Of a stretch of DNA of 45,573 nt, positions 3,089 through 40,763 are shown piece after piece. A program made the translations under genes and the position numbers. This stretch comes from a virus, in IMG/VR virus record IMGVR_UViG_3300027365_000002. One strand, 5' to 3'. The notes beneath the pieces were generated by a model that was given only the letters and a program-made list of their open reading frames with translations, made no database searches and was not told the origin of the DNA. Every line of letters starts with the position of its first letter. Position 1 is the stretch's first letter.

Positions 3089-4078
3089 ATGGCGACATTC
3101 CCAACGATTGATTTCTCGCAATACCAGTGGGTGGTCGATGACCAGAACTACCTCGATAAATGGAACTCGATGCAGTCTGCACTGAATACGCTTCAGGGCA
3201 ATATCGACACTTTCGGCACGGACATGAACGCGCTGAACGCCAGCGCTACTCAGTCAGCTAACGCTGCCAGCGCATCGGCTGATACGGCGACGCAAAAAGC
3301 CAGCGATGCCTCCACCTCTGCAACCAATGCTGCATCATCTGCATCCGCAGCGGCGACTAGCGAAAGCAATGCCGCATCATCTGAATCGAATGCGGCGTCA
3401 TCAGCCTCTGCTGCATCCACCTCCGAGACGAATGCAGCCAGCTCGGCATCGTCTGCATCCGCCTCTGCAACCAATGCCGCCAATTCGGCGCAGGCGGCAG
3501 CGACCAGCGAATCCAACGCCGCCGACACGCTGACCGATTTTCTCAAGCGCTACCTTGGGGCGAAATCTTCACCGCCGACCACCGACAACAGCGGCAATCC
3601 GCTGATCGTCGGCGCGCTCTACTACAGCACTGCAATCGGCGACGAGGGGATGCGGCAGTGGACCGGAATGCAGTGGGAGAACGCCTACGCGACCATTGAT
3701 GGTGTGACGTGGTCCGGGGTCAGCGGAAAACCAGAGACGGCGACACGCTGGCCGTCAACCAGCGAGGTCACCGGGCTCTCGACAGCATTTGGCGCCAAAC
3801 GGGACACCCGGGAGACGGTTGTCTCTGTCACTACCAGCAGGACACTGACGCTTTACGCCACCCATGCACTGCTGGCCGAGGTCAGCGTCTCGCTGCCCAC
3901 CGGGCCTGCGGCCGGTGACTGGGTGTACGTGATCAACCTATCAGGCTCAGAGGCCTGCACGGTGACGACCAGTGACAGCGTGATCCAGGGCGGCGACAGC
4001 ACCCTGACGATCGACAAGTTGAACGCGGCACTGACCCTGATCTATATCGACGCGACCCGCGGCTGGGTCCTGGCATAA
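3089..4078 (+). CDS. Tail fibre protein with N-terminal Ala/Ser/Asn-rich degenerate repeats
   Basis: GAGGTG RBS. Residues about 50-150 are degenerate S-A-x-x-S-x-x-N-A-A repeats (TSESNAASSESNAASSASAASTSETNAASS), as in many phage tail-fibre shafts. Confidence 0.75.
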   Translation: MATFPTIDFSQYQWVVDDQNYLDKWNSMQSALNTLQGNIDTFGTDMNALNASATQSANAASASADTATQKASDASTSATNAASSASAAATSESNAASSESNAASSASAASTSETNAASSASSASASATNAANSAQAAATSESNAADTLTDFLKRYLGAKSSPPTTDNSGNPLIVGALYYSTAIGDEGMRQWTGMQWENAYATIDGVTWSGVSGKPETATRWPSTSEVTGLSTAFGAKRDTRETVVSVTTSRTLTLYATHALLAEVSVSLPTGPAAGDWVYVINLSGSEACTVTTSDSVIQGGDSTLTIDKLNAALTLIYIDATRGWVLA

Positions 4079-4088
4079 GGAGCGAACA

Positions 4089-4892
4089 ATGAGCAACCTG
4101 AGTGATTTTTTTGGGGGTGGTGGGGGCGGTAACACCTCTGTATACGGGATAACGCCTGTTGAAGTTTTGGCATCGTACCCCGGAACCGCATACAACGGCT
4201 TTGGGCATCCAGAAAACACTGGAGGGTCTGTTCATGTAAGTAATTCAAACGCGTCATGGTACTACTATGAGCAAGGGTCACTAGTCTGGTCCATACCCCC
4301 TACCGCTGTTACCACCTCCACTGATATTGTAGGCGTGTGCTGGTATAGCCAGAACAGTTTGTTGTTTGTATTCACAGATGCTGCGACGACATATTTCATC
4401 CGTGAAGTGTCTATAGTCGATGGCTCTTTTTCCGGTGTTTCTGTTGATCTAACAGTAAGTAATTCCAAAATTAGCGCAGATGAAATCAACAATGGGATAT
4501 GGCACAAGGCAGACCTTACCGGGTTCTATATCGGAGGGGCTGATTATTTGGTAGAGCTAGACAACGCCTTTTCTGTCGTAAAGGAAACCAGCGCTAACGG
4601 AAGGATGACGACGCTTGACGGGCTGAGCGTGCTCATACAAAGTAATACGAATGCCTATTCTGACGGTGCAAGTATCTCCATTTCCAATAATGCAAAAAGT
4701 CTTGGCTTAACCTTTTACCGCGCGGAAGGGATTGGTCTAACTCCCAGCGATTACTTCGCGGGTTACCAACTATTCTGCACCGACTATAACGGGTTTGTTC
4801 AGCAACTTGGCAGAGCCCCATTTAGAGCATCAATGGCATCGTTTTCAAAAACTATCAAAGAGGCCTATGTGGCGCTCGGAGGAATCTTGTGA
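4089..4892 (+). CDS. Putative receptor-binding / tail-fibre-associated protein (hypothetical)
   Basis: AAGGAG RBS. N-terminus is MSNLSDFFGGGGGGN. The DNA is markedly AT-richer than the rest of the genome. It follows the fibre gene. Confidence 0.6.
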   Translation: MSNLSDFFGGGGGGNTSVYGITPVEVLASYPGTAYNGFGHPENTGGSVHVSNSNASWYYYEQGSLVWSIPPTAVTTSTDIVGVCWYSQNSLLFVFTDAATTYFIREVSIVDGSFSGVSVDLTVSNSKISADEINNGIWHKADLTGFYIGGADYLVELDNAFSVVKETSANGRMTTLDGLSVLIQSNTNAYSDGASISISNNAKSLGLTFYRAEGIGLTPSDYFAGYQLFCTDYNGFVQQLGRAPFRASMASFSKTIKEAYVALGGIL

Positions 4893-5299
4893 TGCGCACT
4901 GTACAGTTTCTTGTTGAACACATTCCCGGAAGTAGGCTGATAAGCTACCCAGATGACAAGGCACTATTTGCAAACGTGCGTATTGTTGGCGATTACGTAG
5001 TTGCCGATTATGACGGGAGCCTTGCGCTGGAGGATTACGCACCAATCGATACCAGCCCTCGCCACATCACAGTCGGCGCTTTTTTCGACCGCTTCGGCGA
5101 TCAGAAGTACCCGATCCTGTCGAGTGCCGACCCCAACGTGAAAGCGCTGATCACCGACTGCACGGTGCGCGAGTATATCGACCTGGACTCGTCGACGCTG
5201 CCGGGCGGGTTGCAGATGCTGGTCGATGCCGGATTCACCATTGACCCGGATGCGGTGCTGTCGGCACCGGTGCAGGACAGCGAGCGTCCAAGGCGGTGA
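4892..5299 (+). CDS. Hypothetical protein, last gene of the tail operon (possible fibre accessory or assembly protein)
   Basis: ATG 4892 overlaps the upstream stop (TGATG); the track start 4889 is a GTG. An intrinsic terminator follows. Confidence 0.6.
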   Translation: MRTVQFLVEHIPGSRLISYPDDKALFANVRIVGDYVVADYDGSLALEDYAPIDTSPRHITVGAFFDRFGDQKYPILSSADPNVKALITDCTVREYIDLDSSTLPGGLQMLVDAGFTIDPDAVLSAPVQDSERPRR

Positions 5300-20862: not shown

Positions 20863-20897
20863 GCGCCGGCGGAACCCGGTAAATCTCGACAGGAGAT
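20863..20897 (+). repeat. 35-nt leader element, copy A (ends 6 nt before ATG 20903)
   Basis: GCGCCGGCggaacCCGGTAAATCTCGacAGGAGAT matches copy B at 29 of 35 positions. Confidence 0.8.
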
Positions 20898-20902
20898 CGA
20901 TC

Positions 20903-21169
20903 ATGGATACCCAGCCTAACGCAAACGACATCGCCATCACTGAGTTCTACAGGGCATGGATTGTTCAAGTGTTGGGTGAGCCCGAGGCCGCCAAGATGAC
21001 TCGAGCCATCCGAGAACTGAATGAGCTGGCGCGCTGTGGAGATCCGATCCCGAGTGCCGAAGAACTCAAGACGGCCGCCAGCGCCAAGATCCTGATTGAC
21101 CTCATCGCGAAAGCGACCGGCGATGATCGCAAAGAGCTTGCCTACCTCGAGCACAACGAAGGTCAATGA
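20903..21169 (+). CDS. Hypothetical small protein
   Basis: Start at ATG 20903 after AGGAGA (MDTQPNANDIAITEFY...). 88 aa. A terminator follows. Confidence 0.55.
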   Translation: MDTQPNANDIAITEFYRAWIVQVLGEPEAAKMTRAIRELNELARCGDPIPSAEELKTAASAKILIDLIAKATGDDRKELAYLEHNEGQ

Positions 21170-21198: not shown

Positions 21199-21233
21199 GC
21201 GCCGGCATGATCCGGTAAATCTCGCAAGGAGAT
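21199..21233 (+). repeat. 35-nt leader element, copy B (ends 8 nt before ATG 21241)
   Basis: GCGCCGGCatgatCCGGTAAATCTCGcaAGGAGAT lies 336 bp downstream of copy A. Confidence 0.8.
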
Positions 21234-21240
21234 ACTCACC

Positions 21241-22464
21241 ATGGCAAAGACCACCCGCACCTGCCCGGCCTGCAATGAGGCCACCATCACCTTCACCGCC
21301 CGCAACCGCAAGGAAGTCGAGCGCTACGCCGACTGGAAGATCGAGCATGGCCACGTCTGCGACGCCTGCCTGAAGCGTCAGCGCGAAGCTGAGGCTGCCA
21401 AGGCAGCAGAAGCCAATGCCGAGGCAGGTCTGCCTGCCCTGCAGGGCACCGAGAAGCAGATCGCCTGGGCGGAGAGGATCCGGGCCGAGATTCTCGGCAT
21501 CGTCGAGTCGCTGGCCAAGGCCACCGCGATGTTGCGTGAAGGGGATGTTGATGCTGCCCGTGCGGCTTATCGCCAGGTTCCGGCCCTCTGGCATCCCCAG
21601 CACCTGGACTTCTCTGACTTCAACGTCGACAAGGACGGCCAGGCCGAGATCGTGCTGGCGCTGGCCAAGCTGATCCGTCAGGTGCGTGATGCCGGGTGGT
21701 GGATCGACAACCGCGGCCTGAGCTTCACCCAGGCGCTGCGTGAGTTCCGCCAGCCGACTCTCGATGCCCTGCAGGGCGAGTCGGTCGACGAGGTTGTCGA
21801 TGACGTGACGATCAAGCCAGCCGATCCGGTGACCCAGGCGGTGGTCGAGATTCATGTCGGGCAGGGGTATATCACTGCCAAGCTCCCGGAGCGCCGTGAT
21901 GACTTCCGTGATGTGGTCTACCCGCTGGGCTATCGCTGGGACAGCGCCAGCCGAACCTGGGGCTTGTCGGTTGGCGCTCATCTCGGTACGCCGGAGGACC
22001 GAGCCGCCGAACTGATGCACAAGCTTCTCGCTGCGGGGTTCATCGTCAGCTGCCAGCGGTCGGCGGTGCGTGAGAAGGCGATCAGCGCCAGCTTCGAGCC
22101 GGTCTATCCACGCTGGCTGGTAGCGATGACCCGCGGGCGGTTCGCCGGCTGGGTGCGCCTGCTGGCAACCGATGGCCTGAACCTGAATGCCGACCTGGCA
22201 AAGCTGGATGCGCGCGAGGACTACTACCGTCAGGGCAGCTGGTACGTGCGTCCGGGGCATTACGAGGCGCTGCGCGACCTCGCCGAGATCCACGGGTTTC
22301 GGGTCAGCCGGGGGGCCGATGATCTGCTGACCCAGGCGCAGCGCCAGGACGAGGCCCGCCTGCTGGCCGATGACCTGCCGGAGGCACCGAGCGCCACTGC
22401 GCAAAGTCAGGAGCCGGAACGCCATATCCCTGACGGCATCGATCCGGAGTTGAGCGATGACTGA
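21241..22464 (+). CDS. Zinc-ribbon protein with two HARP-like repeats (putative partner of the SNF2 helicase)
   Basis: N-terminal CPAC...CDAC. YPLGYRWDSASRTWGLSVG...LMHKLLAAGFIV and a second ...YYRQGSWYVRPGHYEALRDLAEIHGFRV resemble HARP-domain patterns. The stop overlaps the helicase start by 8 nt. Confidence 0.45.
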   Translation: MAKTTRTCPACNEATITFTARNRKEVERYADWKIEHGHVCDACLKRQREAEAAKAAEANAEAGLPALQGTEKQIAWAERIRAEILGIVESLAKATAMLREGDVDAARAAYRQVPALWHPQHLDFSDFNVDKDGQAEIVLALAKLIRQVRDAGWWIDNRGLSFTQALREFRQPTLDALQGESVDEVVDDVTIKPADPVTQAVVEIHVGQGYITAKLPERRDDFRDVVYPLGYRWDSASRTWGLSVGAHLGTPEDRAAELMHKLLAAGFIVSCQRSAVREKAISASFEPVYPRWLVAMTRGRFAGWVRLLATDGLNLNADLAKLDAREDYYRQGSWYVRPGHYEALRDLAEIHGFRVSRGADDLLTQAQRQDEARLLADDLPEAPSATAQSQEPERHIPDGIDPELSDD

Positions 22465-23926
22465 GGTGGCCACCATCCCCCAGCACCCGGCGGCGATGCC
22501 GCCGGTCTCGCTGACCAGCACGCCGATGCGCCACCAGCAGGCGGCGTTCGAGAAGATGCTGCCCAGCCGGGTCGGAGCCCTGTTCATGGACATGGGGACC
22601 GGCAAGAGCCTGGTGGTGATCATGCTGGCGCTGGCGCGCCGCGAGAAGATCAGCCGGGTGGTGTGGTGCTGCCCGGTCTCGCTCAAGCGCAACACGGCGC
22701 GGCAGATCCTGACCCACACCGATGCCACCGAGGATGACGTGTTCCTGTTCGACGATCGGGTGACCGATGCCGCATTGCCCGCCGTCGGGTGGGTGATTGT
22801 CGGGCTGGAGAGCATCGGCGGAAGCGACCGGGTAACCATGGCGCTGAACGCCCTGGTCGATGAACGGACGATGGTGGTCTGTGACGAGTCGAGCTACATC
22901 AAGGGCCATCGCGCCAAGCGCACCCGCCGGCTGACGCTGATCGCCAACCGCGCCCGGTATCGGCTGGTGCTCAACGGCACGCCGATCAGTCAGGGCGTCG
23001 AGGATCTCTACGCTCAGATGCGGTTCCTGAGCGAGCGCATCCTCGGCTACCGCTCGTGGTATTCGTTCCAGCGTGCGCATCTGGAGTGGAGCGAGAAATT
23101 CAAGGGGCGCATCGACAGCCGCCGCGGCGAGGACTACCTGACCGCGCGCATGGCGCCCTACGTCTACCAGGTGACCAAGGACGAGTGCCTCGACCTGCCC
23201 GAGAAACTGCCGGCATCGGCGCGCTATGTGAGTCTGACGCCCGAGCAGCAGGACCTCTACGAGGCAGCGAAGATCCGCTTCGAGAACGAGGTGATGAACC
23301 TCGAGGAAGAGGACATGATGGGCGTCATCGTCTATCGGCTGTTCGGCGCGCTGCAGGCAATCGCCAGCGGTGTGGTGCCGGCCGGCTTCGAGGGCCACGG
23401 CCAGCCGATCGCCAACCGCAAAATCGACGAGCTGATCGCCGCGCTGCGCCAGATCGAGGATCGGCACGTCGTCGTCTGGTGCCGCTACCAGGCCAACGTC
23501 GAACAGATCGAGGCGGCCCTGGCCGAGGAGCGCCCTGAAATGCCGGTGATGACCTACTACGGCGATCTCAACGAGCGCCAACGCGATGCCAACCTGCAGG
23601 CGTGGGTCGAGCGCGGCGGGGTGTTCCTGGCCACGGCCAGCTGCGGCGGTTACGGGCTCAACGAGTTGGTCGAGGCCCGCTACGCGTTGTTTTTCAGCAA
23701 TGCGTTCAAGTACAGCGAGCGCCTGCAGGCCGAGGATCGTCTGCACCGCCCGGGCCAGACCCGCAACGTCGGCTACGTCGACCTCTGGGCCCGCTGCGGC
23801 ATCGAGGAGCGCATCGAGTCCGCGTTGTACCGCAAGGGCGACGCGCTGGAGACGTTTCGCCGAGAGCTCGACACTGCCCGCCACCGCGGTAAGGGCGCCG
23901 TTGAAACCCTGTTCAGGAGCCTGTGA
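22457..23926 (+). CDS. SNF2-family helicase/ATPase
   Basis: Motif I is DMGTGKS, motif II VVCDESS and motif III LNGTPISQG. C-terminal motifs are LATASCGGYGLN and QAEDRLHRPGQ. Confidence 0.9.
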   Translation: MTEVATIPQHPAAMPPVSLTSTPMRHQQAAFEKMLPSRVGALFMDMGTGKSLVVIMLALARREKISRVVWCCPVSLKRNTARQILTHTDATEDDVFLFDDRVTDAALPAVGWVIVGLESIGGSDRVTMALNALVDERTMVVCDESSYIKGHRAKRTRRLTLIANRARYRLVLNGTPISQGVEDLYAQMRFLSERILGYRSWYSFQRAHLEWSEKFKGRIDSRRGEDYLTARMAPYVYQVTKDECLDLPEKLPASARYVSLTPEQQDLYEAAKIRFENEVMNLEEEDMMGVIVYRLFGALQAIASGVVPAGFEGHGQPIANRKIDELIAALRQIEDRHVVVWCRYQANVEQIEAALAEERPEMPVMTYYGDLNERQRDANLQAWVERGGVFLATASCGGYGLNELVEARYALFFSNAFKYSERLQAEDRLHRPGQTRNVGYVDLWARCGIEERIESALYRKGDALETFRRELDTARHRGKGAVETLFRSL

Positions 23927-25218
23927 TGGCCACGCACACGCTACCCATCGATGTTTACCAGGCCGCCATGCAGCGTCTGGACTACGTGTTCACCCACTTC
24001 GACAACGTCTATGTGTCGTTCTCCGGCGGCAAGGATTCCGGTGTGCTGCTGGAGCTGGCGCTGGCCTACCTGCGTGAGCATGCGCCGCATCGCCGGCTCG
24101 GTGTCTTCCACATCGACTACGAGGCCCAGTACACGGCCACCACCGAGTACGTCGACCGTACCTACCACCGCCTGGCCGGCGAGATCGACAACCTGCGCTG
24201 CTGCGTGCCGCTGAAATGCCCGACCTGCACCAGCATGCATCAGATGCATTGGCGCCCCTGGGATCCAGAGCAGCGCGAGGTGTGGGTGCGCGACCTGCCT
24301 GATGAGTACCTGGGCCCCGAGGCGTTCGATTTCCTGACGCCCGAGATGAGCGACTATGACTTCCAGGAGCGCTTCTCGACCTGGTACCACCAGCGCCAGC
24401 AGGCGACCCGGACCTGCGTGCTGGTCGGCATCCGCGCCGAGGAGAGCCTTGATCGCTGGCGCACGATCGTCAGCGACCGCAACATCAACAAGTTCGAGGG
24501 ACGCGTGTGGACCACGCGGGTCGGCGAGGGCGTCTACAACGCCTACCCGATCTATGACTGGTCGACCGAGGATGTCTGGACGGCCAACGCCCGGTTCGGC
24601 TGGGACTACAACGTGCTCTACGACCTGATGCACTACGCCGGGGTGCCGCTGCATGCCCAGCGCGTCGCCTCGCCGTTCCACAACGCCGCCAAGGCGAGCC
24701 TGAGCCTGTACCGGGTCATCGACCCGCAGGTGTGGGGCAAGATGGTGTCGCGGGTTAACGGCGTGAATTTCACCGCCATCTACGGAAGCACCACGGCGAT
24801 GGGCTGGAAGAACATCACCAAGCCGCAGCACTTCACCTGGAAGCAGTACGCGCTGTTCCTGCTCGACACCCTGCCGCCGGAGACCGCCGAGGCGTTCCGC
24901 CAGAAGCTGGCGACCAGCATCAAGTTCTGGCGCGAGCGGGGCGGGGTGCTGGGCGAGGCCGCCATTGCCGACCTGCGTGATGCCGGCATCGAGCACGAGG
25001 TGGGGTCGTCCACCAACTACAAGACCGATAAGCTGCCGGTGCGCATGGAGTATGCCGACGAGGTCGACAGCAAGGATTTCCGGCTGATCCCGACCTGGAA
25101 GCGGCTGTGCGTGACCATCCTGAAAAACGACCACGTCGGCAAGTACATGGGCTTCAGCCAGACCAAGGCCGAGATGGCCAAGCGCAAGGCAGCCCTCGAG
25201 AAATACAAGGATCTGTGA
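23926..25218 (+). CDS. PAPS-reductase-family PP-loop ATPase (IbrA/DndC-like, with a long C-terminal extension)
   Basis: ATG 23926 overlaps the helicase stop (TGATG) and has an AGGAG RBS. The PP-loop is VSFSGGKDSGVLLELA. The roughly 430-aa length and conserved WxxxW/Y-rich C-terminal half resemble DUF3440-type IbrA proteins. Confidence 0.8.
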   Translation: MATHTLPIDVYQAAMQRLDYVFTHFDNVYVSFSGGKDSGVLLELALAYLREHAPHRRLGVFHIDYEAQYTATTEYVDRTYHRLAGEIDNLRCCVPLKCPTCTSMHQMHWRPWDPEQREVWVRDLPDEYLGPEAFDFLTPEMSDYDFQERFSTWYHQRQQATRTCVLVGIRAEESLDRWRTIVSDRNINKFEGRVWTTRVGEGVYNAYPIYDWSTEDVWTANARFGWDYNVLYDLMHYAGVPLHAQRVASPFHNAAKASLSLYRVIDPQVWGKMVSRVNGVNFTAIYGSTTAMGWKNITKPQHFTWKQYALFLLDTLPPETAEAFRQKLATSIKFWRERGGVLGEAAIADLRDAGIEHEVGSSTNYKTDKLPVRMEYADEVDSKDFRLIPTWKRLCVTILKNDHVGKYMGFSQTKAEMAKRKAALEKYKDL

Positions 25219-25220
25219 CC

Positions 25221-25658
25221 ATGGCGATCAAGGAATACGTCCACGGCGGCGGCAAGGACTACCAGCTGTGGGGCAATGTGGGGCGGTTCGTGATGGACCG
25301 CAAGATCCAGCAGCTGATGGGCAACTGCATCTCGTCTGACCCGGGCGACATCTGGTGGGTGTCGCTGACCCACAAGAGCGAAACGAAGGGGTTCGCCGCC
25401 GCGCGGCCGATGAAGAACGGCACGCTGTACCTGCGCTACTTCTACAGCGCCGAGCAGAACGCCCTGGGGCTGAGCGAGGAGGTGCTGGTCCGCAAAGCCA
25501 TCAACCACGCCCGGGAGAAGGGCATGCCGCTCGTCTACACCTACTGGCACCGTGATTCCGAACTGCTCGCCAAGCTGGGCTTCACCGCCAAGCCCGGGCC
25601 GAAGAACAAGGGCCACTTCATCCGCTGGGAGCTCAACCTCGAGGAGGGCAAGTCATGA
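25221..25658 (+). CDS. Small hypothetical protein, possibly a GNAT-like fold
   Basis: Start at ATG 25221, 2 nt after the upstream stop. LYLRYFYSAEQNALGLSEEVLVRKAINHAREKGMPLVYTYWHRDSELLAKLGF loosely fits the GNAT motif A/B layout. This assignment is weak. Confidence 0.35.
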   Translation: MAIKEYVHGGGKDYQLWGNVGRFVMDRKIQQLMGNCISSDPGDIWWVSLTHKSETKGFAAARPMKNGTLYLRYFYSAEQNALGLSEEVLVRKAINHAREKGMPLVYTYWHRDSELLAKLGFTAKPGPKNKGHFIRWELNLEEGKS

Positions 25659-26203
25659 CCAGCCCCGTCTACAACGTCATCGCCGTGCCGGTCGACAAGG
25701 TCCAGGCCAACGCGTACAACCCCAACGCCGTGGCACCGCCGGAGATGAAGCTGCTGGAACTGTCGATATGGGAAGACGGATTCACCATGCCAGTGGTCTG
25801 CTACTACCTCGAGGACGAGGACCGCTACGAGATCGTCGACGGCTACCACCGCTACACGGTGCTCAAGACCAGCCAGCGGATCCACGAGCGCGAGGGCGGC
25901 ATGCTGCCGGTGACGGTGATCGACAAGCCGATCAGCGACCGCATGGCCTCGACCATCCGCCACAACCGTGCCAGGGGTACGCACGACGTCAGCCTGATGC
26001 GCGACATCGTCGGCGAGCTGGTGGAGTCGGGCATGTCCGATGCCTGGATCATGAAGCACATCGGCATGGACGCCGACGAGCTGCTGCGACTCAAGCAGAT
26101 CAGTGGCATCGCGGCGCTGTTCAAGGACCGCGAGTTCAGCCAGGCCTGGGCGAAGAACGAAGCGGATGCCAAGTGGTACAACGAGGAGGTGTCCGATGCC
26201 TGA
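25655..26203 (+). CDS. ParB/Srx-like nuclease-domain protein (IbrB/DndB-like)
   Basis: ATGA overlap with the upstream gene. V.VDKV.AN.YNPN......EMKLLELSI.EDGF..PVV........YEIVDGYHRY is the ParB N-terminal-domain pattern. Confidence 0.8.
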   Translation: MTSPVYNVIAVPVDKVQANAYNPNAVAPPEMKLLELSIWEDGFTMPVVCYYLEDEDRYEIVDGYHRYTVLKTSQRIHEREGGMLPVTVIDKPISDRMASTIRHNRARGTHDVSLMRDIVGELVESGMSDAWIMKHIGMDADELLRLKQISGIAALFKDREFSQAWAKNEADAKWYNEEVSDA

Positions 26204-27263
26204 TATTCCTCGTCCACGCGAGCACCTTGCCGCTGCCGGGAGGCTCTACAAAGGCGCCTGGAAGCGCATCGACCACTTCCGTGCTGGTCGCGCCCGGGAG
26301 TACCCGGACTGGCCCGACTGGTGCTTCATTCCCATCGCTGCCACCTATGGCATCGTCGCCGATGATGCCGGGGTGGATGGCAGCATGCTGGCGCTGACCC
26401 ACCCCGAGCGGCTGGCCGACCCGGCGCGCCTGGCAGCGTTGGCAAGCTGGCGCATCACTCAGGGCATCTACCGGTTCGACCCGGCGCTCTATGCCAGCGT
26501 GGTAGACACGCCCGTGGAGCGTGACCTGCCTTGTGATGTGCTCTACCGGATGCCGGAGTGGTGCGTCTACGTTGAGACGCCTGATAGGGAGTGGCTGGGC
26601 AGTCGCCTGTATGGGTTCTGGGCACACCTGGAGTACGACATCAATACGGGGCGTCATGAGCTGCGCCTGCTGCTAGACAGCGAAGCGGATCTGACGCCAT
26701 TGCCAGTGCATCTGGGTGACTGGCCGCTGTTCGAGGCGCTGGAGCGTGCGCAGAAAGAAGCGCTGCGCCAAAGCATCGACAAGGGGCTGACTCGCTGGGC
26801 CGAGGGGCTGGCCAAGAACGACGTGGCGACCGGGATTGAAGCCGAGGTCGGGCCGTTGATCTCGCTGCTGCTGTACTTGTGCAGCCAGCCCGACGAGATC
26901 GGTGCCGAGGGTCGTCGGCCCGGTAATCCGCGGCCCAAACGGACAAAGCAGGGCTGGCGCCTGTTCCCGGCCGACAAGCCGTCAACTTGGGATGTCGGTG
27001 TGCGGATCGGCAATGCGCTGCGGCGTGCCTATCACCAGGCAGAAACGGATCAGCAGCCGGTCGGCGAGGGTGGTCGTTCGCGGCCTCGCGCACACGTCCG
27101 GCGGGCGCATTGGCACGGCTACTGGAAGGGGCCACGCGATCCGGAGCGCGCCGAGGAGCGTCGCTTTGACCTGCGTTGGCAGCCACCGATCGCGGTCAAT
27201 GTCGTGGACACCGACCGGCTGCCGGCCGTGGTGCGGCCCGTGAAAGGAGGTGAGCAGTCATGA
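26196..27263 (+). CDS. Hypothetical 355-aa protein with a basic C-terminal region
   Basis: Start at ATG 26196 after GAGGAGG, with an 8-nt overlap on the ParB-like gene. The C-terminus is RPGNPRPKRTKQGWRLF...RPRAHVRRAHWHGYWKGPR. No family was recognised. Confidence 0.65.
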   Translation: MPDIPRPREHLAAAGRLYKGAWKRIDHFRAGRAREYPDWPDWCFIPIAATYGIVADDAGVDGSMLALTHPERLADPARLAALASWRITQGIYRFDPALYASVVDTPVERDLPCDVLYRMPEWCVYVETPDREWLGSRLYGFWAHLEYDINTGRHELRLLLDSEADLTPLPVHLGDWPLFEALERAQKEALRQSIDKGLTRWAEGLAKNDVATGIEAEVGPLISLLLYLCSQPDEIGAEGRRPGNPRPKRTKQGWRLFPADKPSTWDVGVRIGNALRRAYHQAETDQQPVGEGGRSRPRAHVRRAHWHGYWKGPRDPERAEERRFDLRWQPPIAVNVVDTDRLPAVVRPVKGGEQS

Positions 27264-27457
27264 CTGAGCCAAAGTCCACATACCGGCGCGTCGCCAAGCA
27301 CCGCGCCAAGCTGTCCGAGACCGGCGGCCGACGGCTGGACCTGCTGTTGTCGCCCGAGGCCAATGCCGCCGCCGAGCATCTGATCGAGAGTGGCGTTGCC
27401 AGCAACCTGACCGCGCTGATCAACCAACTTCTGATTGAGAAGAATCAGAACAACTAG
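27260..27457 (+). CDS. Small ribbon-helix-helix-like regulator (YbfE/CopG-like pattern)
   Basis: ATGA overlap with the upstream gene. YRRVAKHRAKLSETGGRRLDLLLSPEANAAAEHLIESG...LTALINQLL resembles LexA-regulated YbfE/CopG-type proteins. Confidence 0.5.
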   Translation: MTEPKSTYRRVAKHRAKLSETGGRRLDLLLSPEANAAAEHLIESGVASNLTALINQLLIEKNQNN

Positions 27458-27460
27458 ATG

Positions 27461-27494
27461 TTGTGCTGACTCCACAGTTGATCTACCATATATG
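27461..27494 (+). promoter_or_regulatory. Candidate promoter(s) upstream of the terminator-tRNA-lysis unit
   Basis: Either TTGTGC (27461-66) plus 17 nt plus TACCAT (27484-89), or TGACTC (27467-72) plus 16 nt plus TATATG (27489-94). Neither is close to consensus. Confidence 0.3.
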
Positions 27495-27531
27495 TAGCTT
27501 GGCGATTGTTCCGCCCAGCGCCACTCACACA

Positions 27532-27566
27532 ACGCCCTGCCGGCCTCCCGGCGGGGCGTTTTCGTT
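27532..27566 (+). terminator. Strong rho-independent terminator
   Basis: A 12-bp stem, ACGCCCTGCCGG (27532-43) with CCGGCGGGGCGT (27548-59) including one G-U pair, has the loop cctc and is followed by TTTTCGTT. Confidence 0.8.
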
Positions 27567-27568
27567 GC

Positions 27569-27643
27569 AGCGGGTGAGTCAGACGGTCAAGACGCCGGGC
27601 TCATATCCCGGAGAAAGTGGTTCGACTCCACTACCCGCTACCA
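27569..27643 (+). tRNA. tRNA-Met (anticodon CAT), initiator-like anticodon arm, genomically encoded CCA
   Basis: Hand-folded, 75 nt. Acceptor AGCGGGT pairs with ACCCGCT. The D arm is GTCA-gacggtca-AGAC with one A.A mismatch. The anticodon arm is CCGGG-CTCATAT-CCCGG and the T arm is AGTGG-TTCGACT-CCACT, followed by A-CCA. Position 8 is G rather than the usual U. Confidence 0.7.
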
Positions 27644-27721: not shown

Positions 27722-28258
27722 ATGACTGCCTATGCACCCCGCAACTGGCTCGGCGAGGCCGAGCTGGTGCCGTTCGATCCGCCTGTTGATCCCGCCGCCG
27801 ATGATGCCGGCAACCTGGCCGCGTTCTTCGACATGCTGGCGCACAGCGAGGGCACGGCCCGGTTCGGCGACCAGGATGGCTACAACGTGCTGGTCGGCGG
27901 CAGCCTGTTCCACAGCTATGCCGATCACCCCCGCCGCTCGGTCTGGCTGCCGGCCTATGGCATCCACAGCACGGCGGCGGGCCGCTACCAGTTCCTCGAG
28001 TCGACCTGGGACGACCTGGCCAACCGGTTCGACCTGGTCGACTTCACCCCGGCCAGCCAGGATGCCGCTGCCATGCAGCTGGTCCGCCAGTGCAAGGCGC
28101 TGCGGCTGATCTACGACGGCCACATCCGCGATGCCATCCATGCCTGCCGCTCGATCTGGGCGAGCCTTCCCGGTGCGGGCTATGGGCAGCGCGAGGTGGC
28201 GTTGGCTGAGCTGATCGACGTGTACCGCCAGGCCGGCGGCCACGTCGCAGAACGATAA
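27722..28258 (+). CDS. R: Endolysin, lambda R-type lytic transglycosylase
   Basis: Collinear with lambda R. FFDMLAHSEGT aligns with FLDMLAWSEGT, GYNVLVGG with GYDVIVGG, AAGRYQFL with GAGRYQLL, and IWASLPGAGYGQ is identical. The start was trimmed to ATG 27722 because the track start overlaps the tRNA. Confidence 0.95.
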   Translation: MTAYAPRNWLGEAELVPFDPPVDPAADDAGNLAAFFDMLAHSEGTARFGDQDGYNVLVGGSLFHSYADHPRRSVWLPAYGIHSTAAGRYQFLESTWDDLANRFDLVDFTPASQDAAAMQLVRQCKALRLIYDGHIRDAIHACRSIWASLPGAGYGQREVALAELIDVYRQAGGHVAER

Positions 28259-39897: not shown

Positions 39898-39955
39898 ATG
39901 GATAGTTCAGTTGGCGCTAAAGTTGCCTTTGCCAATAACGCAAGGGAACAACGCA

Positions 39956-40357
39956 ATGTGGAAGATCGCTATGGGGGCAGCAGTGCTGGCATTGCTGTCT
40001 GGCTGTGCCACGTCGTCAGACGTGATGAATGCCCCGTTGACTGCAGGGGTTTCCAAGGATTTCAAAGCCCCGTATGAAACCACCAAGCGGCTGGCACTGG
40101 AGAGTGTTCAAGGGCTAAATGTCGACGTAAAATCGACACAGGAAACCGACGACGTCTACACCATCATCTTTGCCAAATCAATGTCAGCTTTCAGCTGGGG
40201 CGAGGTTGGACGCGTCAATGTCATGGACCTTTCCCCGAAAAGCCGTGTATCCGTGATTACCGAGAAGCGTGCGAAATATCAGTTGACCGGCACAGATCAA
40301 GGTGATTTCGCGCAGGCTGTCTTCGATGGTATCGAGCATGCGTTGGATCGTCGCTAG
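39956..40357 (+). CDS. Lipoprotein (moron) between the tail chaperone and tape-measure genes
   Basis: Start at ATG 39956 after AAGGGA. MWKIAMGAAVLALLSGCATSS has a signal peptide plus lipobox. The DNA is AT-richer than its flanks. Confidence 0.7.
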   Translation: MWKIAMGAAVLALLSGCATSSDVMNAPLTAGVSKDFKAPYETTKRLALESVQGLNVDVKSTQETDDVYTIIFAKSMSAFSWGEVGRVNVMDLSPKSRVSVITEKRAKYQLTGTDQGDFAQAVFDGIEHALDRR

Positions 40358-40736
40358 TCTCGTGGCTGTTGCGCTTGCCGGGTGTGGCGGGCTGGAGCGA
40401 AAAAGCTATCCGTCATCCATCACGTCCAATCGCCTCGTGGGAACCGTTGCCCATGTGCAGCCCTATACCGGTGAAGCCAGCGAGAGCAACCTCTCCCGTG
40501 CAGGCTGGGGGCTTCTTGCAGGGGGAGTCGTGGCGAGCGCGTTTGCCGGTTTCTCCGAATCTGATATTGGCGATGTGGATGCCTACAGCTATATCGTCAA
40601 ACCGGTACCTGATGGCGAATCACAGCTCGTCAATGCCTACAATTATGTGCCGAAAGGCGCCTGTGTGGCGGTTTACGACTCCGTGTCGAAGGGCATGAGA
40701 TCCATCGAAAGACTCGGCCCTGATTCCTGCCGCTGA
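40338..40736 (+). CDS. Second lipoprotein (moron)
   Basis: Start at ATG 40338. MRWIVASLVAVALAGCGG has a signal peptide plus lipobox. It overlaps the first lipoprotein gene by 20 nt. Confidence 0.65.
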   Translation: MRWIVASLVAVALAGCGGLERKSYPSSITSNRLVGTVAHVQPYTGEASESNLSRAGWGLLAGGVVASAFAGFSESDIGDVDAYSYIVKPVPDGESQLVNAYNYVPKGACVAVYDSVSKGMRSIERLGPDSCR

Positions 40737-40763
40737 ATAACGTCTTCTCTTCACAACATCGAA

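What the first reader, a model, noticed from the sequence alone, without database searches (positions are those of the whole stretch)
23926..27457. Translationally coupled PP-loop (IbrA/DndC-like), small GNAT-like, ParB-like (IbrB/DndB-like), 355-aa unknown and RHH module: candidate DNA-modification or late-regulation system
Five genes run head to tail with start/stop overlaps or a 2-nt gap: TGATG at 23926, ATGA at 25655, an 8-nt overlap at 26196 and ATGA at 27260. They are coupled upstream to an SNF2 helicase. The first has an SGGKDS PP-loop of the PAPS-reductase family. The third has a ParB/Srx N-terminal domain (NPN...DGYHRY). A PP-loop enzyme paired with a ParB-like protein is the DndC/DndB logic of phosphorothioation. 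It is also the IbrA/IbrB pair of E. coli prophages, whose biochemistry is, as far as I know, unresolved. The pair here is joined by a possible acetyltransferase-like protein, a basic 355-aa protein of no family I recognise, and an RHH regulator. The module sits just before the late terminator, tRNA, lysis and packaging genes, where lambda carries Q. No Q-like gene is recognisable in this phage.
Basis: partly seen in the sequence, partly recalled or inferred. Interest (0 to 1): 0.82.

Follow-up and report, generated by a model that had tools for sequence, protein, structure and literature searches.

The report
IbrAB cassette beside AcrVA2-like gene
The five tightly packed phage genes are two neighbouring cassettes, not one machine: a widespread, highly conserved enzyme pair of unknown chemistry (IbrA/IbrB, here with a dedicated GNAT-fold third subunit), and an AcrVA2/FinQ-type anti-defence gene with a small regulator.

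Summary
The terminator, tRNA, lysis and packaging genes follow.

The single-module interpretation fails its own co-conservation test. IbrA (PAPS_reduct + DUF3440) and IbrB (ParB/Srx) are adjacent in all 32 informative IMG/VR loci. They have either an SNF2 helicase (16 loci) or an unnamed ~140-aa protein (15 loci) beside them. The 145-aa protein has a confidently predicted GNAT fold. Its family was found only between IbrA and IbrB (16 of 16 contexts), so it is a true third subunit.

The "unknown" 355-aa protein is an AcrVA2/FinQ homologue (PDB 7CI1, E=8.5e-20; Pfam PF26125). All five functionally important residues are conserved. It travels with the 65-aa RHH-like gene. It sits next to IbrAB only in the two closest relatives, and in one of those two extra genes lie between them.

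IbrAB is not a general Q substitute. It coexists with Q in an E. coli phage and lies elsewhere in Streptococcus, Lactobacillus and Mycobacterium phages. Its chemistry remains unsolved; a DNA-directed nucleotide-dependent enzyme is my best guess.

Verdict: known families, with one new three-subunit variant. Interest is moderate.

The parts
21241..22464 (+). 407-aa protein with an N-terminal zinc-ribbon-like motif, overlapping the SNF2 start by 8 nt. It partners the SNF2 gene in this lineage.
   Evidence: ORF. Only weak family hits (DUF6276 E=0.0026, phrog_16123). A homologue lies directly upstream of SNF2 in L006-L010, L036, L049, L052 and L054.
22457..23926 (+). SNF2-family helicase/translocase (489 aa), coupled to IbrA by TGATG.
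   Evidence: PF00176 E=1.9e-17, PF00271 E=1.1e-7; phrog_62 E=9.6e-89. It is directly upstream of IbrA in 16 of 34 IMG/VR loci. The same holds in S. thermophilus phage CHPC877 and Lactobacillus phage AQ113.
23926..25218 (+). IbrA: PP-loop ATP-pyrophosphatase domain of the PAPS-reductase fold plus a C-terminal DUF3440 (430 aa).
   Evidence: PF11922 E=4.5e-79, PF01507 E=1.4e-14; phrog_2302 E=3.1e-100. FSGGKDS, D64 and E66 are invariant and C93 is conserved in 42 of 43. In the AF2 model (pLDDT 81), the aligned ~225-305 columns match CysH, APS reductase, FAD synthase, CysD and TilS; nothing in the PDB covers the whole protein, so DUF3440 is apparently unmatched (per-residue ranges were not returned). 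At least 7,904 homologues exist.
25221..25658 (+). 145-aa GNAT-fold protein, a dedicated third subunit of a subset of IbrAB cassettes.
   Evidence: No Pfam, PHROG, NCBIfam or PADLOC hit. AF2 gives pLDDT 88 and pTM 0.83 with the topology b1-a1-a2-b2-b3-b4-a3-b5-a4-b6-b7. Foldseek finds 431 PDB hits at E<=1e-3; the 50 listed are all GNAT-superfamily or putative acetyltransferases. Family members lie between IbrA and IbrB in 16 of 16 contexts. The family has 148 representative clusters.
25655..26203 (+). IbrB: ParB/Srx N-terminal domain with a DGYHR motif, plus a small conserved C-terminal helical domain (182 aa).
   Evidence: phrog_2159 E=2.3e-81. PF02195 E=6e-5, 23.5 bits, just under the 26.3-bit cut-off. 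PDB matches are Noc (E=2e-4) and SbnI (DGVHRYT). Motifs ANxYNPN, VDGxHR, RxNRARGxH and GMxxDExLRLKQ are invariant across eight IbrB sequences from proteobacterial and Firmicutes phages. It is 72-74% identical to the IbrB of Streptococcus and Lactobacillus phages.
26196..27263 (+). AcrVA2/FinQ-family protein (355 aa), a separate anti-defence-type cargo gene.
   Evidence: phmmer against PDB 7CI1 AcrVA2 gives E=8.5e-20 over residues 76-335. Precomputed Pfam PF26125 AcrVA2-like is recorded on the identical protein. W85, D95, H300, R302 and H305 correspond to AcrVA2 W79, D89, H286, R288 and H291. phrog_6160 E=3.5e-55. Outside the two nearest relatives it is not linked to IbrAB.
27260..27457 (+). 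65-aa probable ribbon-helix-helix protein. It travels with the AcrVA2-like gene and sits in the position an Aca-type regulator would take.
   Evidence: Homologues (42-44% identity) directly follow the AcrVA2-like gene in L049 and L052, although L049 has two genes inserted between IbrB and the pair. RHH_1 E=0.0078 in 2 of 4 homologues. PF10723 RepB-RCR_reg (weak) is recorded on the L049 homologue. There is no PDB sequence hit.
27461..27489 (+). Candidate weak sigma-70 promoter (TTGTGC, 17 nt, TACCAT) in a conserved intergenic block.
   Evidence: Read from the sequence. Aligned positions in the relatives read TTGTAT-17-TACTAT (L049) and TTGACT-17-TAGGAT (L052). The consensus scanner did not call it. 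This is an inference only.
27534..27566 (+). Intrinsic-terminator-like hairpin (10-bp stem GCCCTGCCGG/CCGGCGGGGC, 4-nt loop, T-tract).
   Evidence: The stem is almost invariant in L049 and L052, although the flanking protein is only 42-44% identical.
27569..27643 (+). tRNA with anticodon CAT. It is an insertion specific to this phage.
   Evidence: ARAGORN and Rfam RF00005 at 55.8 bits. It is absent from the aligned intergenic regions of L049 and L052.
27722..28258 (+). Endolysin, the first late gene downstream.
   Evidence: phrog_90 E=8.2e-45. Holin, DUF1441 (TerS-like) and GpA-type TerL follow.

Best explanation
The region is a composite of two cassettes at the distal end of the early-right operon of a lambdoid, Halomonas-type temperate phage.

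(A) The first is a horizontally mobile IbrA-IbrB cassette. IbrA is a PP-loop ATP-pyrophosphatase with a DUF3440 domain. IbrB is a ParB/Srx nucleotide-binding domain of the DGxHR type with a small helical C-terminal domain. Here the cassette is a rarer three-gene form, with a dedicated GNAT-fold subunit between the two genes, and it follows a 407-aa/SNF2 helicase pair.

I infer that this is a nucleotide-dependent enzyme complex that works on DNA. In this model IbrB binds an NTP and targets the complex to DNA. IbrA adenylates a substrate through its intact SGGKDS loop, possibly relaying through the near-invariant Cys93. The GNAT-fold subunit adds or transfers a group. SNF2, or in other phages the alternative ~140-aa protein, gives access to the substrate. 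The likely output is a covalent mark on DNA, which would protect it or change its expression. That would fit the only genetic phenotype known for the family: ibrA and ibrB together switch on silent prophage eib genes in E. coli ECOR-9.

(B) The second is an independent anti-defence-type pair. Its AcrVA2/FinQ-family protein is expected to bind the nascent N-terminus of one host or rival-element protein and trigger loss of its mRNA. The target here is unknown. A small RHH-like DNA-binding protein is inherited with it.

Both cassettes sit in a variable cargo slot just upstream of a conserved promoter-terminator cassette and the late genes.

Shown: family identities, gene order and co-conservation. 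Inferred: the substrate and chemistry of IbrAB, the target of the AcrVA2-like protein, and the role of the RHH protein.
For: Evidence for splitting the region in two:
- IbrA and IbrB are adjacent in 32 of 32 informative IMG/VR loci, while the 355-aa and 65-aa genes occur in 0 of 34.
- None of 9 genome loci and none of 5 phage loci with 355-aa relatives carries IbrAB.
- In the close relative L049 two genes separate IbrB from the AcrVA2-like/RHH pair, which stays together.
- The cassettes diverge at different rates in L052 and L049. IbrA is 91/86% identical and IbrB 92/88%. The AcrVA2-like protein is 78/66% and the 65-aa protein 42/44%.
- In another lineage the slot after IbrB holds an Aca2_YdiL-like gene.

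Identity of cassette B:
- PDB 7CI1 AcrVA2 matches at E=8.5e-20, and W79, D89, H286, R288 and H291 are all conserved.
- PF26125 is recorded on the identical protein.
- The mechanism, and the wide distribution of homologues without Cas12a, come from Marino et al..

Cassette A as a self-contained, DNA-linked enzyme unit:
- The PP-loop, D64 and E66 are invariant.
- The fold matches adenine-nucleotide alpha-hydrolases.
- IbrB matches Noc and SbnI, and its motifs are invariant across eight IbrB sequences from proteobacterial and Firmicutes phages.
- IbrB is 72-74% and IbrA 45-55% identical between this phage and the Streptococcus and Lactobacillus phages. This argues for a universal substrate.
- A helicase lies directly upstream in about half of the loci, and the cassette lies inside the replication module of mycobacteriophage Gaia.
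- The IbrA-GNAT-IbrB triple stands alone in a bacterial chromosome between pntAB and recG/spoT.
- The GNAT family was found only between IbrA and IbrB (16 of 16 contexts).
- ParB-like proteins partnering DNA-modifying enzymes (DndB with the Dnd machinery, DpdB with DpdA) are established.

My own knowledge: the eib phenotype comes from Sandt, Hopper and Hill, J Bacteriol 2002. I saw the reference only in reference lists.
Against: - No datum here shows that DNA is modified. The substrate could equally be a small molecule: IbrB's DGxHR motif is closest to the serine kinases SbnI and SerK. It could also be RNA or a protein.
- The GNAT-fold protein does not conserve the Q/RxxGxG/A CoA-pyrophosphate loop, so it may not be an acyl-CoA transferase.
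- The CC..C..C cluster that suggested an Fe-S or sulfur chemistry is specific to this clade, not to the family.
- Chromosomal IbrAB islands have no obvious restriction partner.
- The only experimental phenotype in the family is transcriptional.
- In this phage the AcrVA2-like gene has no promoter region of its own. It overlaps IbrB by 8 nt, so the classical Aca autoregulation logic cannot be shown. The RHH protein could instead act on the conserved intergenic region just downstream.
- The RHH assignment is itself below threshold.
Confidence: 0.55

Rival explanations
1. IbrA, IbrB and the GNAT protein are this phage's late-gene switch. They would fill the Q role, allowing transcription from the conserved promoter to read through the conserved terminator into the lysis and packaging genes. 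Alternatively they activate that promoter.
For: In the window and its two closest relatives the cassette ends the early-right operon, just upstream of a conserved candidate promoter and a near-invariant hairpin with a T-tract that precede the late genes. No Q-like family was found among ten early-operon proteins. The family's only known phenotype is joint activation of prophage genes in E. coli (own knowledge: Sandt et al. 2002). Many IMG/VR contigs end within a few kb of IbrB, or have a terminase shortly after it, for example L019 and L021.
Against: The position is not conserved. The cassette lies between lysin and cro in S. thermophilus CHPC877 and Lactobacillus AQ113, and inside the replication module of Gaia. 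It is convergent with tail and lysis genes in L050, L051, L054 and L055, and stands alone in a chromosome in L053. E. coli phage PhiR5_2 has a bona fide Q-like gene (phrog_753 E=3.3e-68) at the nin/Q position and carries IbrAB in a distant accessory arm. IbrB is 72-74% identical across phyla, which is hard to reconcile with recognition of phage-specific late promoters or of host-specific RNA polymerase surfaces. In L049 two unrelated genes and the AcrVA2-like pair lie between IbrB and the promoter-terminator block.
Confidence: 0.18
2. All five genes, with SNF2, form one DNA-modification system of Dnd-like logic.
For: The genes are tightly coupled translationally. IbrB and the 355-aa gene share the same 8-nt overlap in the closest relative, L052. 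There are weak PP-loop-level hits of IbrA to DndC, BrxP and SspD models.
Against: The 355-aa and 65-aa genes are not co-conserved with IbrAB beyond two near relatives, and they are separable even there. The 355-aa protein belongs to a family with a different, experimentally described activity. The DndC equivalog scores 19.7 bits against a 290-bit cut-off. No DndB, DndA, DndD or DndE equivalents were found. Overlapping starts and stops are generic in these operons.
Confidence: 0.05
3. The IbrAB cassette is a defence or superinfection-exclusion module that prophages and islands carry for the benefit of the host, for example a nucleotide-depleting or abortive-infection system.
For: Stand-alone chromosomal islands exist: L053 and E. 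coli ybdNM, which is kept repressed by the adjacent LysR regulator YbdO. ParB/Srx proteins have been proposed as NTP-degrading or nicking effectors in conflict systems. A 2026 preprint lists untested operon clusters that pair a YejK-like nucleoid protein with a PAPS reductase, some also with Arc and ParBc proteins, near defence genes. IbrA hits BrxP, DndC and SspD models only weakly, and only over the PP-loop region.
Against: The cassette is present in strictly lytic dairy phages (the Moineauvirus CHPC877 and relatives), where a host-protective module makes little sense. PADLOC finds no match beyond the PP-loop region for IbrA and none for IbrB or the GNAT protein. There is no YejK-like gene next to it here. 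Its neighbours in this lineage are anti-defence-type genes, namely the AcrVA2-like and Aca2-like genes.
Confidence: 0.12
4. IbrA is an auxiliary metabolic gene: a real PAPS reductase that boosts host sulfur assimilation, as many phage annotations state.
For: The Pfam PAPS_reduct hit, the PHROG label and the Foldseek top hits to CysH and APS reductase.
Against: The CysH model scores 17.6 bits against a 154-bit cut-off and the CysD models are far below theirs. The SGGKDS PP-loop is of the canonical ATP-pyrophosphatase type (established knowledge of the PP-loop motif). The obligate partner is a ParB/Srx protein, and the frequent partner is a helicase. DUF3440 is absent from metabolic PAPS reductases.
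Confidence: 0.02

Closest known systems
IbrA/IbrB of the E. coli ECOR-9 IbrAB island, with E. coli K-12 YbdN/YbdM
   Same: The two-protein architecture is the same: PAPS_reduct + DUF3440 followed by a ParB/Srx protein, as overlapping or adjacent genes. The annotated IbrA/IbrB of E. coli phage PhiR5_2 are 34% and 48% identical to the window proteins. Like them, the pair occurs both in prophages and as chromosomal islands.
   Different: Here a GNAT-fold gene is inserted between the two and an SNF2 helicase precedes them. The window proteins belong to a much more conserved subgroup (63-91% identity among the top 120 hits). The activating function shown genetically in ECOR-9 has not been tested for this subgroup.
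DndB/DndC (DNA phosphorothioation) and DpdB/DpdA with DpdE (7-deazaguanine in DNA)
   Same: The logic is similar: a ParB-superfamily NTP-binding protein (DGQHR in DndB, DGYHR here) works with a nucleotide-dependent modification enzyme. In Dpd an SNF2-like helicase also belongs to the system. IbrA and DndC are both PP-loop enzymes of the PAPS-reductase fold.
   Different: There is no membership. The DndC equivalog scores 19.7 bits against 290, no DndB or DpdA/B/C model matches, and there are no DndA, DndD or DndE genes. The SNF2 hits to DpdE and ZorD are generic helicase-core hits. DUF3440 is unique to IbrA.
AcrVA2 (Moraxella bovoculi prophage; PDB 7CI1/7CI2) and FinQ (E. coli plasmids)
   Same: Homology is clear over about 260 residues (E=8.5e-20) and Pfam PF26125 applies. 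The HxRxxH motif (RAHVRRAHWHGYW here, RPHIRRGHWHGYW in AcrVA2) and the W and D residues whose mutation weakens AcrVA2 are conserved. Like most family members, it sits in a mobile-element cargo position.
   Different: Identity is low and the N-terminal ~75 residues do not align. [quoted passage not shown] The target is therefore probably not the same. Whether the host has Cas12a is unknown. The gene is embedded in the early operon with no promoter of its own.
Phage lambda NinC and the nin region
   Same: NinC is a PAPS-reductase-family protein of unknown function, encoded between the replication genes and Q in a lambdoid early-right operon. It is dispensable in lambda.
   Different: NinC lacks DUF3440 and has no ParB/Srx partner. 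Lambda has Q, whereas this phage has no recognisable Q.
Phage Mu Mom (GNAT-fold DNA-modifying enzyme)
   Same: Mom is a precedent for a small phage GNAT-fold protein acting in DNA base modification (own knowledge: Karambelkar et al., NAR 2020).
   Different: No sequence relation was detected. The window protein does not conserve the CoA-binding loop, and it is always sandwiched between IbrA and IbrB, which Mom is not.

Membership tests
IbrA/IbrB (YbdN/YbdM) pair | IbrA architecture: PAPS_reduct PP-loop domain plus C-terminal DUF3440 | tested here: met
   PF01507 E=1.4e-14 (54.9 bits, cut-off 22.5) and PF11922 E=4.5e-79 (264.9 bits, cut-off 25). SGGKDS is invariant.
IbrA/IbrB (YbdN/YbdM) pair | IbrB: a short ParB/Srx-domain protein of the IbrB type | tested here: met
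   phrog_2159 E=2.3e-81. It is 48% identical to the annotated IbrB of phage PhiR5_2 and 72-74% to the IbrB of CHPC877 and AQ113. Pfam ParB_N scores only 23.5 bits against a 26.3-bit cut-off.
IbrA/IbrB (YbdN/YbdM) pair | The two genes are adjacent or overlapping, with ibrA first | tested here: met
   The order is IbrA then IbrB in 32 of 32 informative loci. In the window and 16 other loci one GNAT-fold gene is intercalated.
IbrA/IbrB (YbdN/YbdM) pair | Both proteins together activate expression of prophage genes | not testable with these tools
   This needs genetics. It is known only for ECOR-9 (own knowledge: Sandt et al. 2002).
Dnd phosphorothioation (DndBCDE with DndA) | DndC equivalog | tested here: not met
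   TIGR03183 scores 19.7 bits against a 290.4-bit cut-off. PADLOC DndC E=1.9e-6, over the PP-loop region only.
Dnd phosphorothioation (DndBCDE with DndA) | DndB (DGQHR) plus DndA, DndD and DndE partners in the neighbourhood | tested here: not met
   There is no PADLOC hit for IbrB or any other neighbour except generic SNF2 hits. Pfam and PHROG scans of the neighbours show none of these.
AcrVA2/FinQ family | Sequence homology to AcrVA2 and the Pfam AcrVA2-like domain | tested here: met
   7CI1_A E=8.5e-20, residues 76-335 against 71-317. PF26125 is precomputed on the identical protein and on relatives. The local Pfam copy gave no hit.
AcrVA2/FinQ family | Conserved functional residues (W79, D89, H286, R288, H291 of AcrVA2) | tested here: met
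   W85, D95, H300, R302 and H305 align with them. The residue roles come from Marino et al..
AcrVA2/FinQ family | Inhibits Cas12a by translation-dependent loss of its mRNA | not testable with these tools
   The host genome is not available. The paper notes that most homologues occur where Cas12a is absent.
Aca-type (anti-CRISPR-associated) regulator | A small DNA-binding protein encoded directly downstream of the acr gene and inherited with it | tested here: inconclusive
   Position and co-inheritance are met. The DNA-binding fold is only weakly supported: RHH_1 E=0.0078 in 2 of 4 homologues, PF10723 weak, and no PDB hit. There is no promoter with inverted repeats upstream of the acr-like gene, because it overlaps IbrB. 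hhalign against the small ORF after the Moraxella homologue is not significant.
GNAT acyl-CoA N-acyltransferases | GNAT fold | tested here: met
   AF2 pLDDT 88 and pTM 0.83 with canonical topology. Foldseek gives 431 PDB hits at E<=1e-3 with TM about 0.55-0.68; the 50 listed are all GNAT-superfamily or putative acetyltransferases.
GNAT acyl-CoA N-acyltransferases | Conserved Q/RxxGxG/A pyrophosphate-binding loop between b4 and a3 | tested here: not met
   The loop (residues about 77-85) is variable across 26 family members. The invariant residues cluster in HG..DYQLWGNVGR and LRYFY instead. No Pfam GNAT model matches.
Lambda-type Q antiterminators | A recognisable Q-family protein at the end of the early-right operon | tested here: not met
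   No Q-like PHROG match in ten early-operon proteins or in the module. As a positive control, phrog_753 E=3.3e-68 was found in phage PhiR5_2.

The most novel reading that the evidence does not exclude
IbrA-GNAT-IbrB, helped by SNF2 or by the alternative ~140-aa protein, is a previously unrecognised nucleic-acid hypermodification machine. In this reading a ParB/Srx NTP-binding subunit places a PP-loop adenylating enzyme on DNA, and the dedicated GNAT-fold subunit transfers a group to the activated position. The mark would both protect phage DNA from host defences and relieve silencing, which would explain the old 'co-activator of prophage gene expression' phenotype.
Probability: 0.2. Interest if true: 0.8.

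Novelty: new variant of a known kind. Interest (0 to 1): 0.45.

Why it matters
IbrA/IbrB is one of the large "known unknowns" of phage genomes. The search returned at least 7,904 homologues. Identity reaches up to 74% for IbrB and 55% for IbrA between phages of Gammaproteobacteria and of Firmicutes. Copies occur in industrially important dairy phages, in mycobacteriophages and in E. coli K-12 itself. The family is routinely mis-annotated as a sulfur-metabolism gene or as a partition protein.

This analysis does not solve its chemistry, but it sharpens the problem in four ways:
- It separates IbrAB from an unrelated AcrVA2-type neighbour.
- It shows that the conserved unit is [SNF2 or a ~140-aa protein] + IbrA + IbrB.
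- It identifies a GNAT-fold family found only inside the cassette.
- It shows that the cassette is not a general substitute for Q.

These points name tractable systems for testing: S. thermophilus, Lactobacillus and Mycobacterium phages, and E. coli ybdNM. The AcrVA2-like gene adds another case of this mRNA-knockdown family in a host group where its target is unknown.

Tried and rejected
- Megablast of the 5-kb module against 50,697 phage records found no match. All comparisons had to be at protein level.
- Ten literature searches found no mechanistic study of IbrA/IbrB or YbdN/YbdM. The original 2002 paper and the ParB/Srx paper of Maindola et al. are not held.
- The Fe-S or sulfur-relay idea from the CC-x4-C-x2-C cluster was rejected as a family feature. 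Only C93 is conserved across 43 diverse IbrA sequences.
- The profile of 36 IbrA sequences found no solved relative in the PDB. Foldseek alignments span only ~225-305 columns of the PAPS-reductase-type fold and none covers the whole protein, so DUF3440 remains structurally unplaced.
- For the 65-aa protein, the profile search against the PDB gave only a chance-level match to the uL18 N-terminus. The word-indexed protein search found two sequences only. hhalign against the small ORF that follows the Moraxella phage AcrVA2 homologue gave a probability below 1%. A common origin for the small genes downstream of AcrVA2-like genes is therefore not shown.
- The upstream-neighbour family c3 and the neighbours c5, c9 and c13 gave no informative Pfam or PHROG match.
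- The repeat search across 20.7-27.8 kb found no parS-like array or convincing operator near the module, only chance-level repeats and one 35-nt duplication upstream of two other genes.
- The consensus promoter scan found no sigma-70 site in 19-30 kb. The promoter I mark is below its threshold and rests only on alignment with two relatives.
- The Rfam scan of the window found only the tRNA.
- The 144-aa ORF between IbrA and IbrB in L032 is not a member of the GNAT family.

Full report
**Observation**

The five genes and their junctions are exactly as described:
- SNF2 (22457-23926) and IbrA (23926-25218) share one base (TGATG).
- A 2-nt gap precedes the 145-aa gene (25221-25658).
- ATGA links the 145-aa gene to IbrB (25655-26203).
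- IbrB overlaps the 355-aa gene (26196-27263) by 8 nt.
- ATGA links the 355-aa gene to the 65-aa gene (27260-27457).

The SGGKDS loop and the NPN...DGYHRY motif are present. Downstream lie a strong hairpin with a T-tract (about 27534-27566) and a tRNA with anticodon CAT (27569-27643). The endolysin, holin, a DUF1441 TerS-like gene and a GpA-type large terminase follow.

The window as a whole looks like a circularly permuted lambdoid genome. It has tail genes, an integrase, a leftward operon, O-like, P-like and Ant genes, a VRR-NUC gene, then this region, then the late genes. Start/stop overlaps are generic in these operons (for example), so they say little about functional unity.

**Identity of each protein**

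IbrA. It matches DUF3440 (E=4.5e-79) and PAPS_reduct (E=1.4e-14), and phrog_2302.

IbrB. It matches phrog_2159 (E=2.3e-81). It matches ParB_N just under the Pfam threshold.

The 145-aa protein. It matches no library. With an alignment of 26 homologues, AlphaFold gives a confident model (pLDDT 88, pTM 0.83) with the canonical GNAT strand-helix order. Foldseek returns 431 PDB hits at E<=1e-3, and the 50 listed are all GNAT-superfamily or putative acetyltransferases. The family does not conserve the CoA pyrophosphate-binding loop. Its invariant residues lie in HG..DYQLWGNVGR and LRYFY.

The 355-aa protein.
- tblastn finds relatives in Moraxella catarrhalis phages and in a Shewanella phage gene annotated AcrVA2.
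- phmmer finds the AcrVA2 crystal structure 7CI1 at E=8.5e-20 over 260 residues.
- The identical protein in the public contig carries a precomputed Pfam PF26125 AcrVA2-like hit.
- Marino et al. (bioRxiv 10.1101/2022.11.29.518452) showed that AcrVA2 binds the N-terminal polypeptide of Cas12a and causes translation-dependent loss of its mRNA.
- They also showed that H286, R288 and H291 are needed and that W79 and D89 contribute.
- They report that homologues, including the plasmid fertility inhibitor FinQ, are widespread on mobile elements, mostly where Cas12a is absent.
- All five residues are conserved here as W85, D95, H300, R302 and H305.

The 65-aa protein. It has only sub-threshold support for a ribbon-helix-helix fold. 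RHH_1 gives E=0.0078 in two of four homologues, and a weak PF10723 hit is recorded on one relative. There is no PDB match.

**Co-conservation**

A scan of IMG/VR with IbrA returned 34 loci. The results were:
- IbrB follows IbrA in all 32 loci that extend far enough.
- An SNF2 helicase lies directly upstream in 16 loci.
- In 15 others a ~120-195-aa protein with no family assignment (here called c3) lies beside the pair.
- The two accessory proteins never occur together.
- The AcrVA2-like and 65-aa genes occur in none of the 34.

Conversely, none of nine genome loci with AcrVA2-like relatives has IbrAB nearby. That set includes a 61%-identical protein in Vreelandella rituensis. None of five phages with such relatives has IbrAB nearby either. 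There the gene sits in accessory regions near integrases or attachment sites.

Only the two nearest relatives share the window's arrangement:
- In a metagenomic contig (L052) the AcrVA2-like gene overlaps IbrB as it does here.
- In the Halomonas sp. Mc5H-6 prophage (L049) two unrelated genes are inserted after IbrB. The AcrVA2-like gene and the 65-aa homologue stay together in front of the lysis genes.

Identities to L052 and L049 fall from 91/86% (IbrA) and 92/88% (IbrB) to 78/66% (AcrVA2-like) and 42/44% (65-aa). In a further lineage the slot after IbrB holds an Aca2_YdiL-like gene.

I conclude that genes 4 and 5 are a separate, faster-evolving anti-defence-type cargo pair in a variable slot. 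They are not part of the IbrAB system.

**The GNAT-fold gene belongs to the cassette**

Every member examined lies between IbrA and IbrB, in 16 of 16 loci. These include remote members at profile E-values of 1e-23, 6e-17 and 5e-9. The family has 148 representative clusters, against at least 7,904 IbrA homologues. The three-gene form is therefore a minority variant.

In one case the triple IbrA-GNAT-IbrB stands alone in a bacterial chromosome, between pntAB and recG/spoT. This shows that the cassette is self-contained. It parallels the ECOR-9 IbrAB island and E. coli K-12 ybdNM, which the neighbouring LysR regulator YbdO represses.

**What IbrAB might do**

Family-wide features of the proteins:
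- IbrA keeps an invariant FSGGKDS PP-loop, D64 and E66, and one nearly invariant cysteine (C93). The CC..C..C cluster seen in the window is specific to its clade.
- In the IbrA model the N-terminal domain resembles CysH, APS reductase, the FAD synthase PAPS domain, CysD, TilS, NcsA/TtuA and LarE. The listed Foldseek alignments span only ~225-305 columns and none covers the whole protein, so no solved structure appears to match DUF3440. No PDB sequence matches the family profile.
- The curated DndC, CysH and CysD models are far below their cut-offs. PADLOC gives only PP-loop-level hits.
- IbrB aligns with the nucleotide-binding N-domain of Noc. It shares the DG(V/Y)HRYT motif with the ParB/Srx kinase-regulator SbnI.
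- The IbrB motifs ANxYNPN, VDGxHR, RxNRARGxH and GMxxDExLRLKQ are invariant across eight IbrB sequences from proteobacterial and Firmicutes phages.

Conservation is extreme. IbrB is 72-74% identical and IbrA 45-55% identical between this Halomonas-type phage and the Streptococcus thermophilus and Lactobacillus phages.

The genomic position varies:
- At the end of the early operon before the late genes, in this lineage.
- Between lysin and cro in the lytic dairy phage CHPC877 and in AQ113, again with SNF2 upstream.
- Inside the replication module of mycobacteriophage Gaia, with c3 two genes downstream.
- In an accessory arm of the E. coli phage PhiR5_2, which has its own Q-like antiterminator (phrog_753, E=3.3e-68) at the usual place.

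Four observations fit an enzyme complex acting on a universal substrate, most plausibly DNA:
- the mobility of the cassette;
- its conservation across phyla;
- its helicase linkage;
- its neighbourhood of anti-defence genes.

They fit a late transcription factor tailored to one phage less well. The analogy with ParB-like partners of DNA-modifying enzymes (DndB, DpdB) points the same way. It is a resemblance, not membership.

The one experimental phenotype in the family is joint activation of silent prophage eib genes (own knowledge: Sandt, Hopper and Hill 2002, cited). It could be a downstream effect of such a mark. I put this model at about 0.4 on its own. The decomposition into two cassettes I put at about 0.85.

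**The late-switch rival**

It is not excluded for this lineage. The intergenic DNA after the 65-aa gene is conserved in the window and both close relatives, far better than the adjacent protein. It contains a candidate weak promoter and a nearly invariant terminator hairpin ahead of the lysis genes. This resembles the lambda pR'-tR' arrangement, which needs an antiterminator. No Q-like protein is detectable.

The antiterminator could be IbrAB, the 65-aa protein next to the site, or one of several unassigned early proteins. The cross-phage evidence above makes IbrAB a poor general candidate, and I give this rival about 0.18. A defence or exclusion role (about 0.12) is suggested by chromosomal islands and by untested PAPS-reductase/ParBc/Arc operon clusters in a 2026 preprint. 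It fits poorly with the presence of the cassette in lytic phages. The sulfur-metabolism annotation is not supported.

**Comparison and novelty**

Both cassettes belong to named families: IbrA/IbrB (YbdN/YbdM) and AcrVA2/FinQ. I found no description in the searchable literature of four points:
- the GNAT-fold family restricted to IbrAB cassettes;
- the mutually exclusive SNF2 or c3 accessory;
- the degree of cross-phylum conservation;
- the evidence that the cassette is not tied to the Q position.

The finding is therefore a new variant of a known, mechanistically unsolved kind, sitting next to a new member of a known anti-defence family. It still marks a worthwhile, testable open problem.

Noticed in passing
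L018 7407-7832; L019 2537-3031; L059 (Mycobacterium phage Gaia) 6543-6941; 15 IMG/VR loci in all; absent from the window: An unassigned ~120-195-aa protein family ('c3', motifs N..AWIGHAAC and CPEDxTRxAW..L..Q..AN..A; alignment A5) lies next to IbrA/IbrB in 15 of 34 loci. It is never found together with the SNF2 helicase, which occupies that place in 16 loci. The two look like alternative third components of IbrAB systems. There is no Pfam or PHROG match.
   Followed up: partly
L025 7890-8186; L026 7765-8004; L028 10132-10395 (5 loci): Free-standing 80-98-aa genes next to IbrA encode only the last ~40 residues of DUF3440 (PF11922 positions 139-176, E=4.6e-6). The motif P(S/T)(Y/W)(K/R)..C..ILKND....LGFS is also invariant at the C-terminus of IbrA. 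It may be an interaction module.
   Followed up: no
L053 8715-11093 (ENA ERZ26859048 contig_26, 1.79 Mb): IbrA, the GNAT-fold protein and IbrB stand alone as a three-gene island in a bacterial chromosome, between pntAB and recG-spoT-rpoZ. No phage genes lie within 10 kb on either side.
   Followed up: partly
window 27457-27570, aligned with L049 11860-12100 and L052 12225-12405: The intergenic DNA between the 65-aa gene and the lysis genes is better conserved than the flanking protein. The conserved block includes TAGCTTGGCG.TTGTT and a nearly invariant terminator hairpin. It looks like a lambda pR'-tR'-style late control cassette in phages with no recognisable Q. The factor that overcomes the terminator is unidentified.
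   Followed up: partly
window 27569-27643: The tRNA with anticodon CAT (Met, or Ile2 if lysidine-modified) is inserted between the terminator and the endolysin in this phage only. It is missing from the two closest relatives.
   Followed up: no
window 20863-20897 and 21199-21233: A 35-nt direct repeat (83% identical, GCGCCGGC..CCGGTAAATCTCG..AGGAGAT) ends 5-7 nt before the ATG of two consecutive genes, at 20903 and 21241. It includes their Shine-Dalgarno sequences. It could be a shared translational or transcriptional control element.
   Followed up: no
L049 9044-10623 (Halomonas sp. Mc5H-6 prophage): Two genes (118 aa and 408 aa) are inserted between IbrB and the AcrVA2-like gene in this relative. 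Neither has a PHROG match, and the larger has only a faint Cas_Csy2 Pfam hint. They may be further anti-defence cargo in the same slot.
   Followed up: no
L001 6873-7067 (Shewanella phage Y11); L005 5728-5928 (Moraxella phage Mcat5); L042 9038-9262 (Vreelandella rituensis): AcrVA2-like genes in distant phages and genomes are often followed within 75 nt by a 64-74-aa gene. Those of Shewanella and Moraxella have the same length and charge pattern as the window's 65-aa protein, but homology could not be shown (hhalign probability below 1%). The Vreelandella one is HTH-like.
   Followed up: partly
window 4001-5000 and 39900-40750: Two low-GC patches (0.48 and 0.56, against about 0.66 for the window) hold a 267-aa ORF after the tail-fibre-like genes and two small lipoprotein-like ORFs. 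They are probably recently acquired morons.
   Followed up: no
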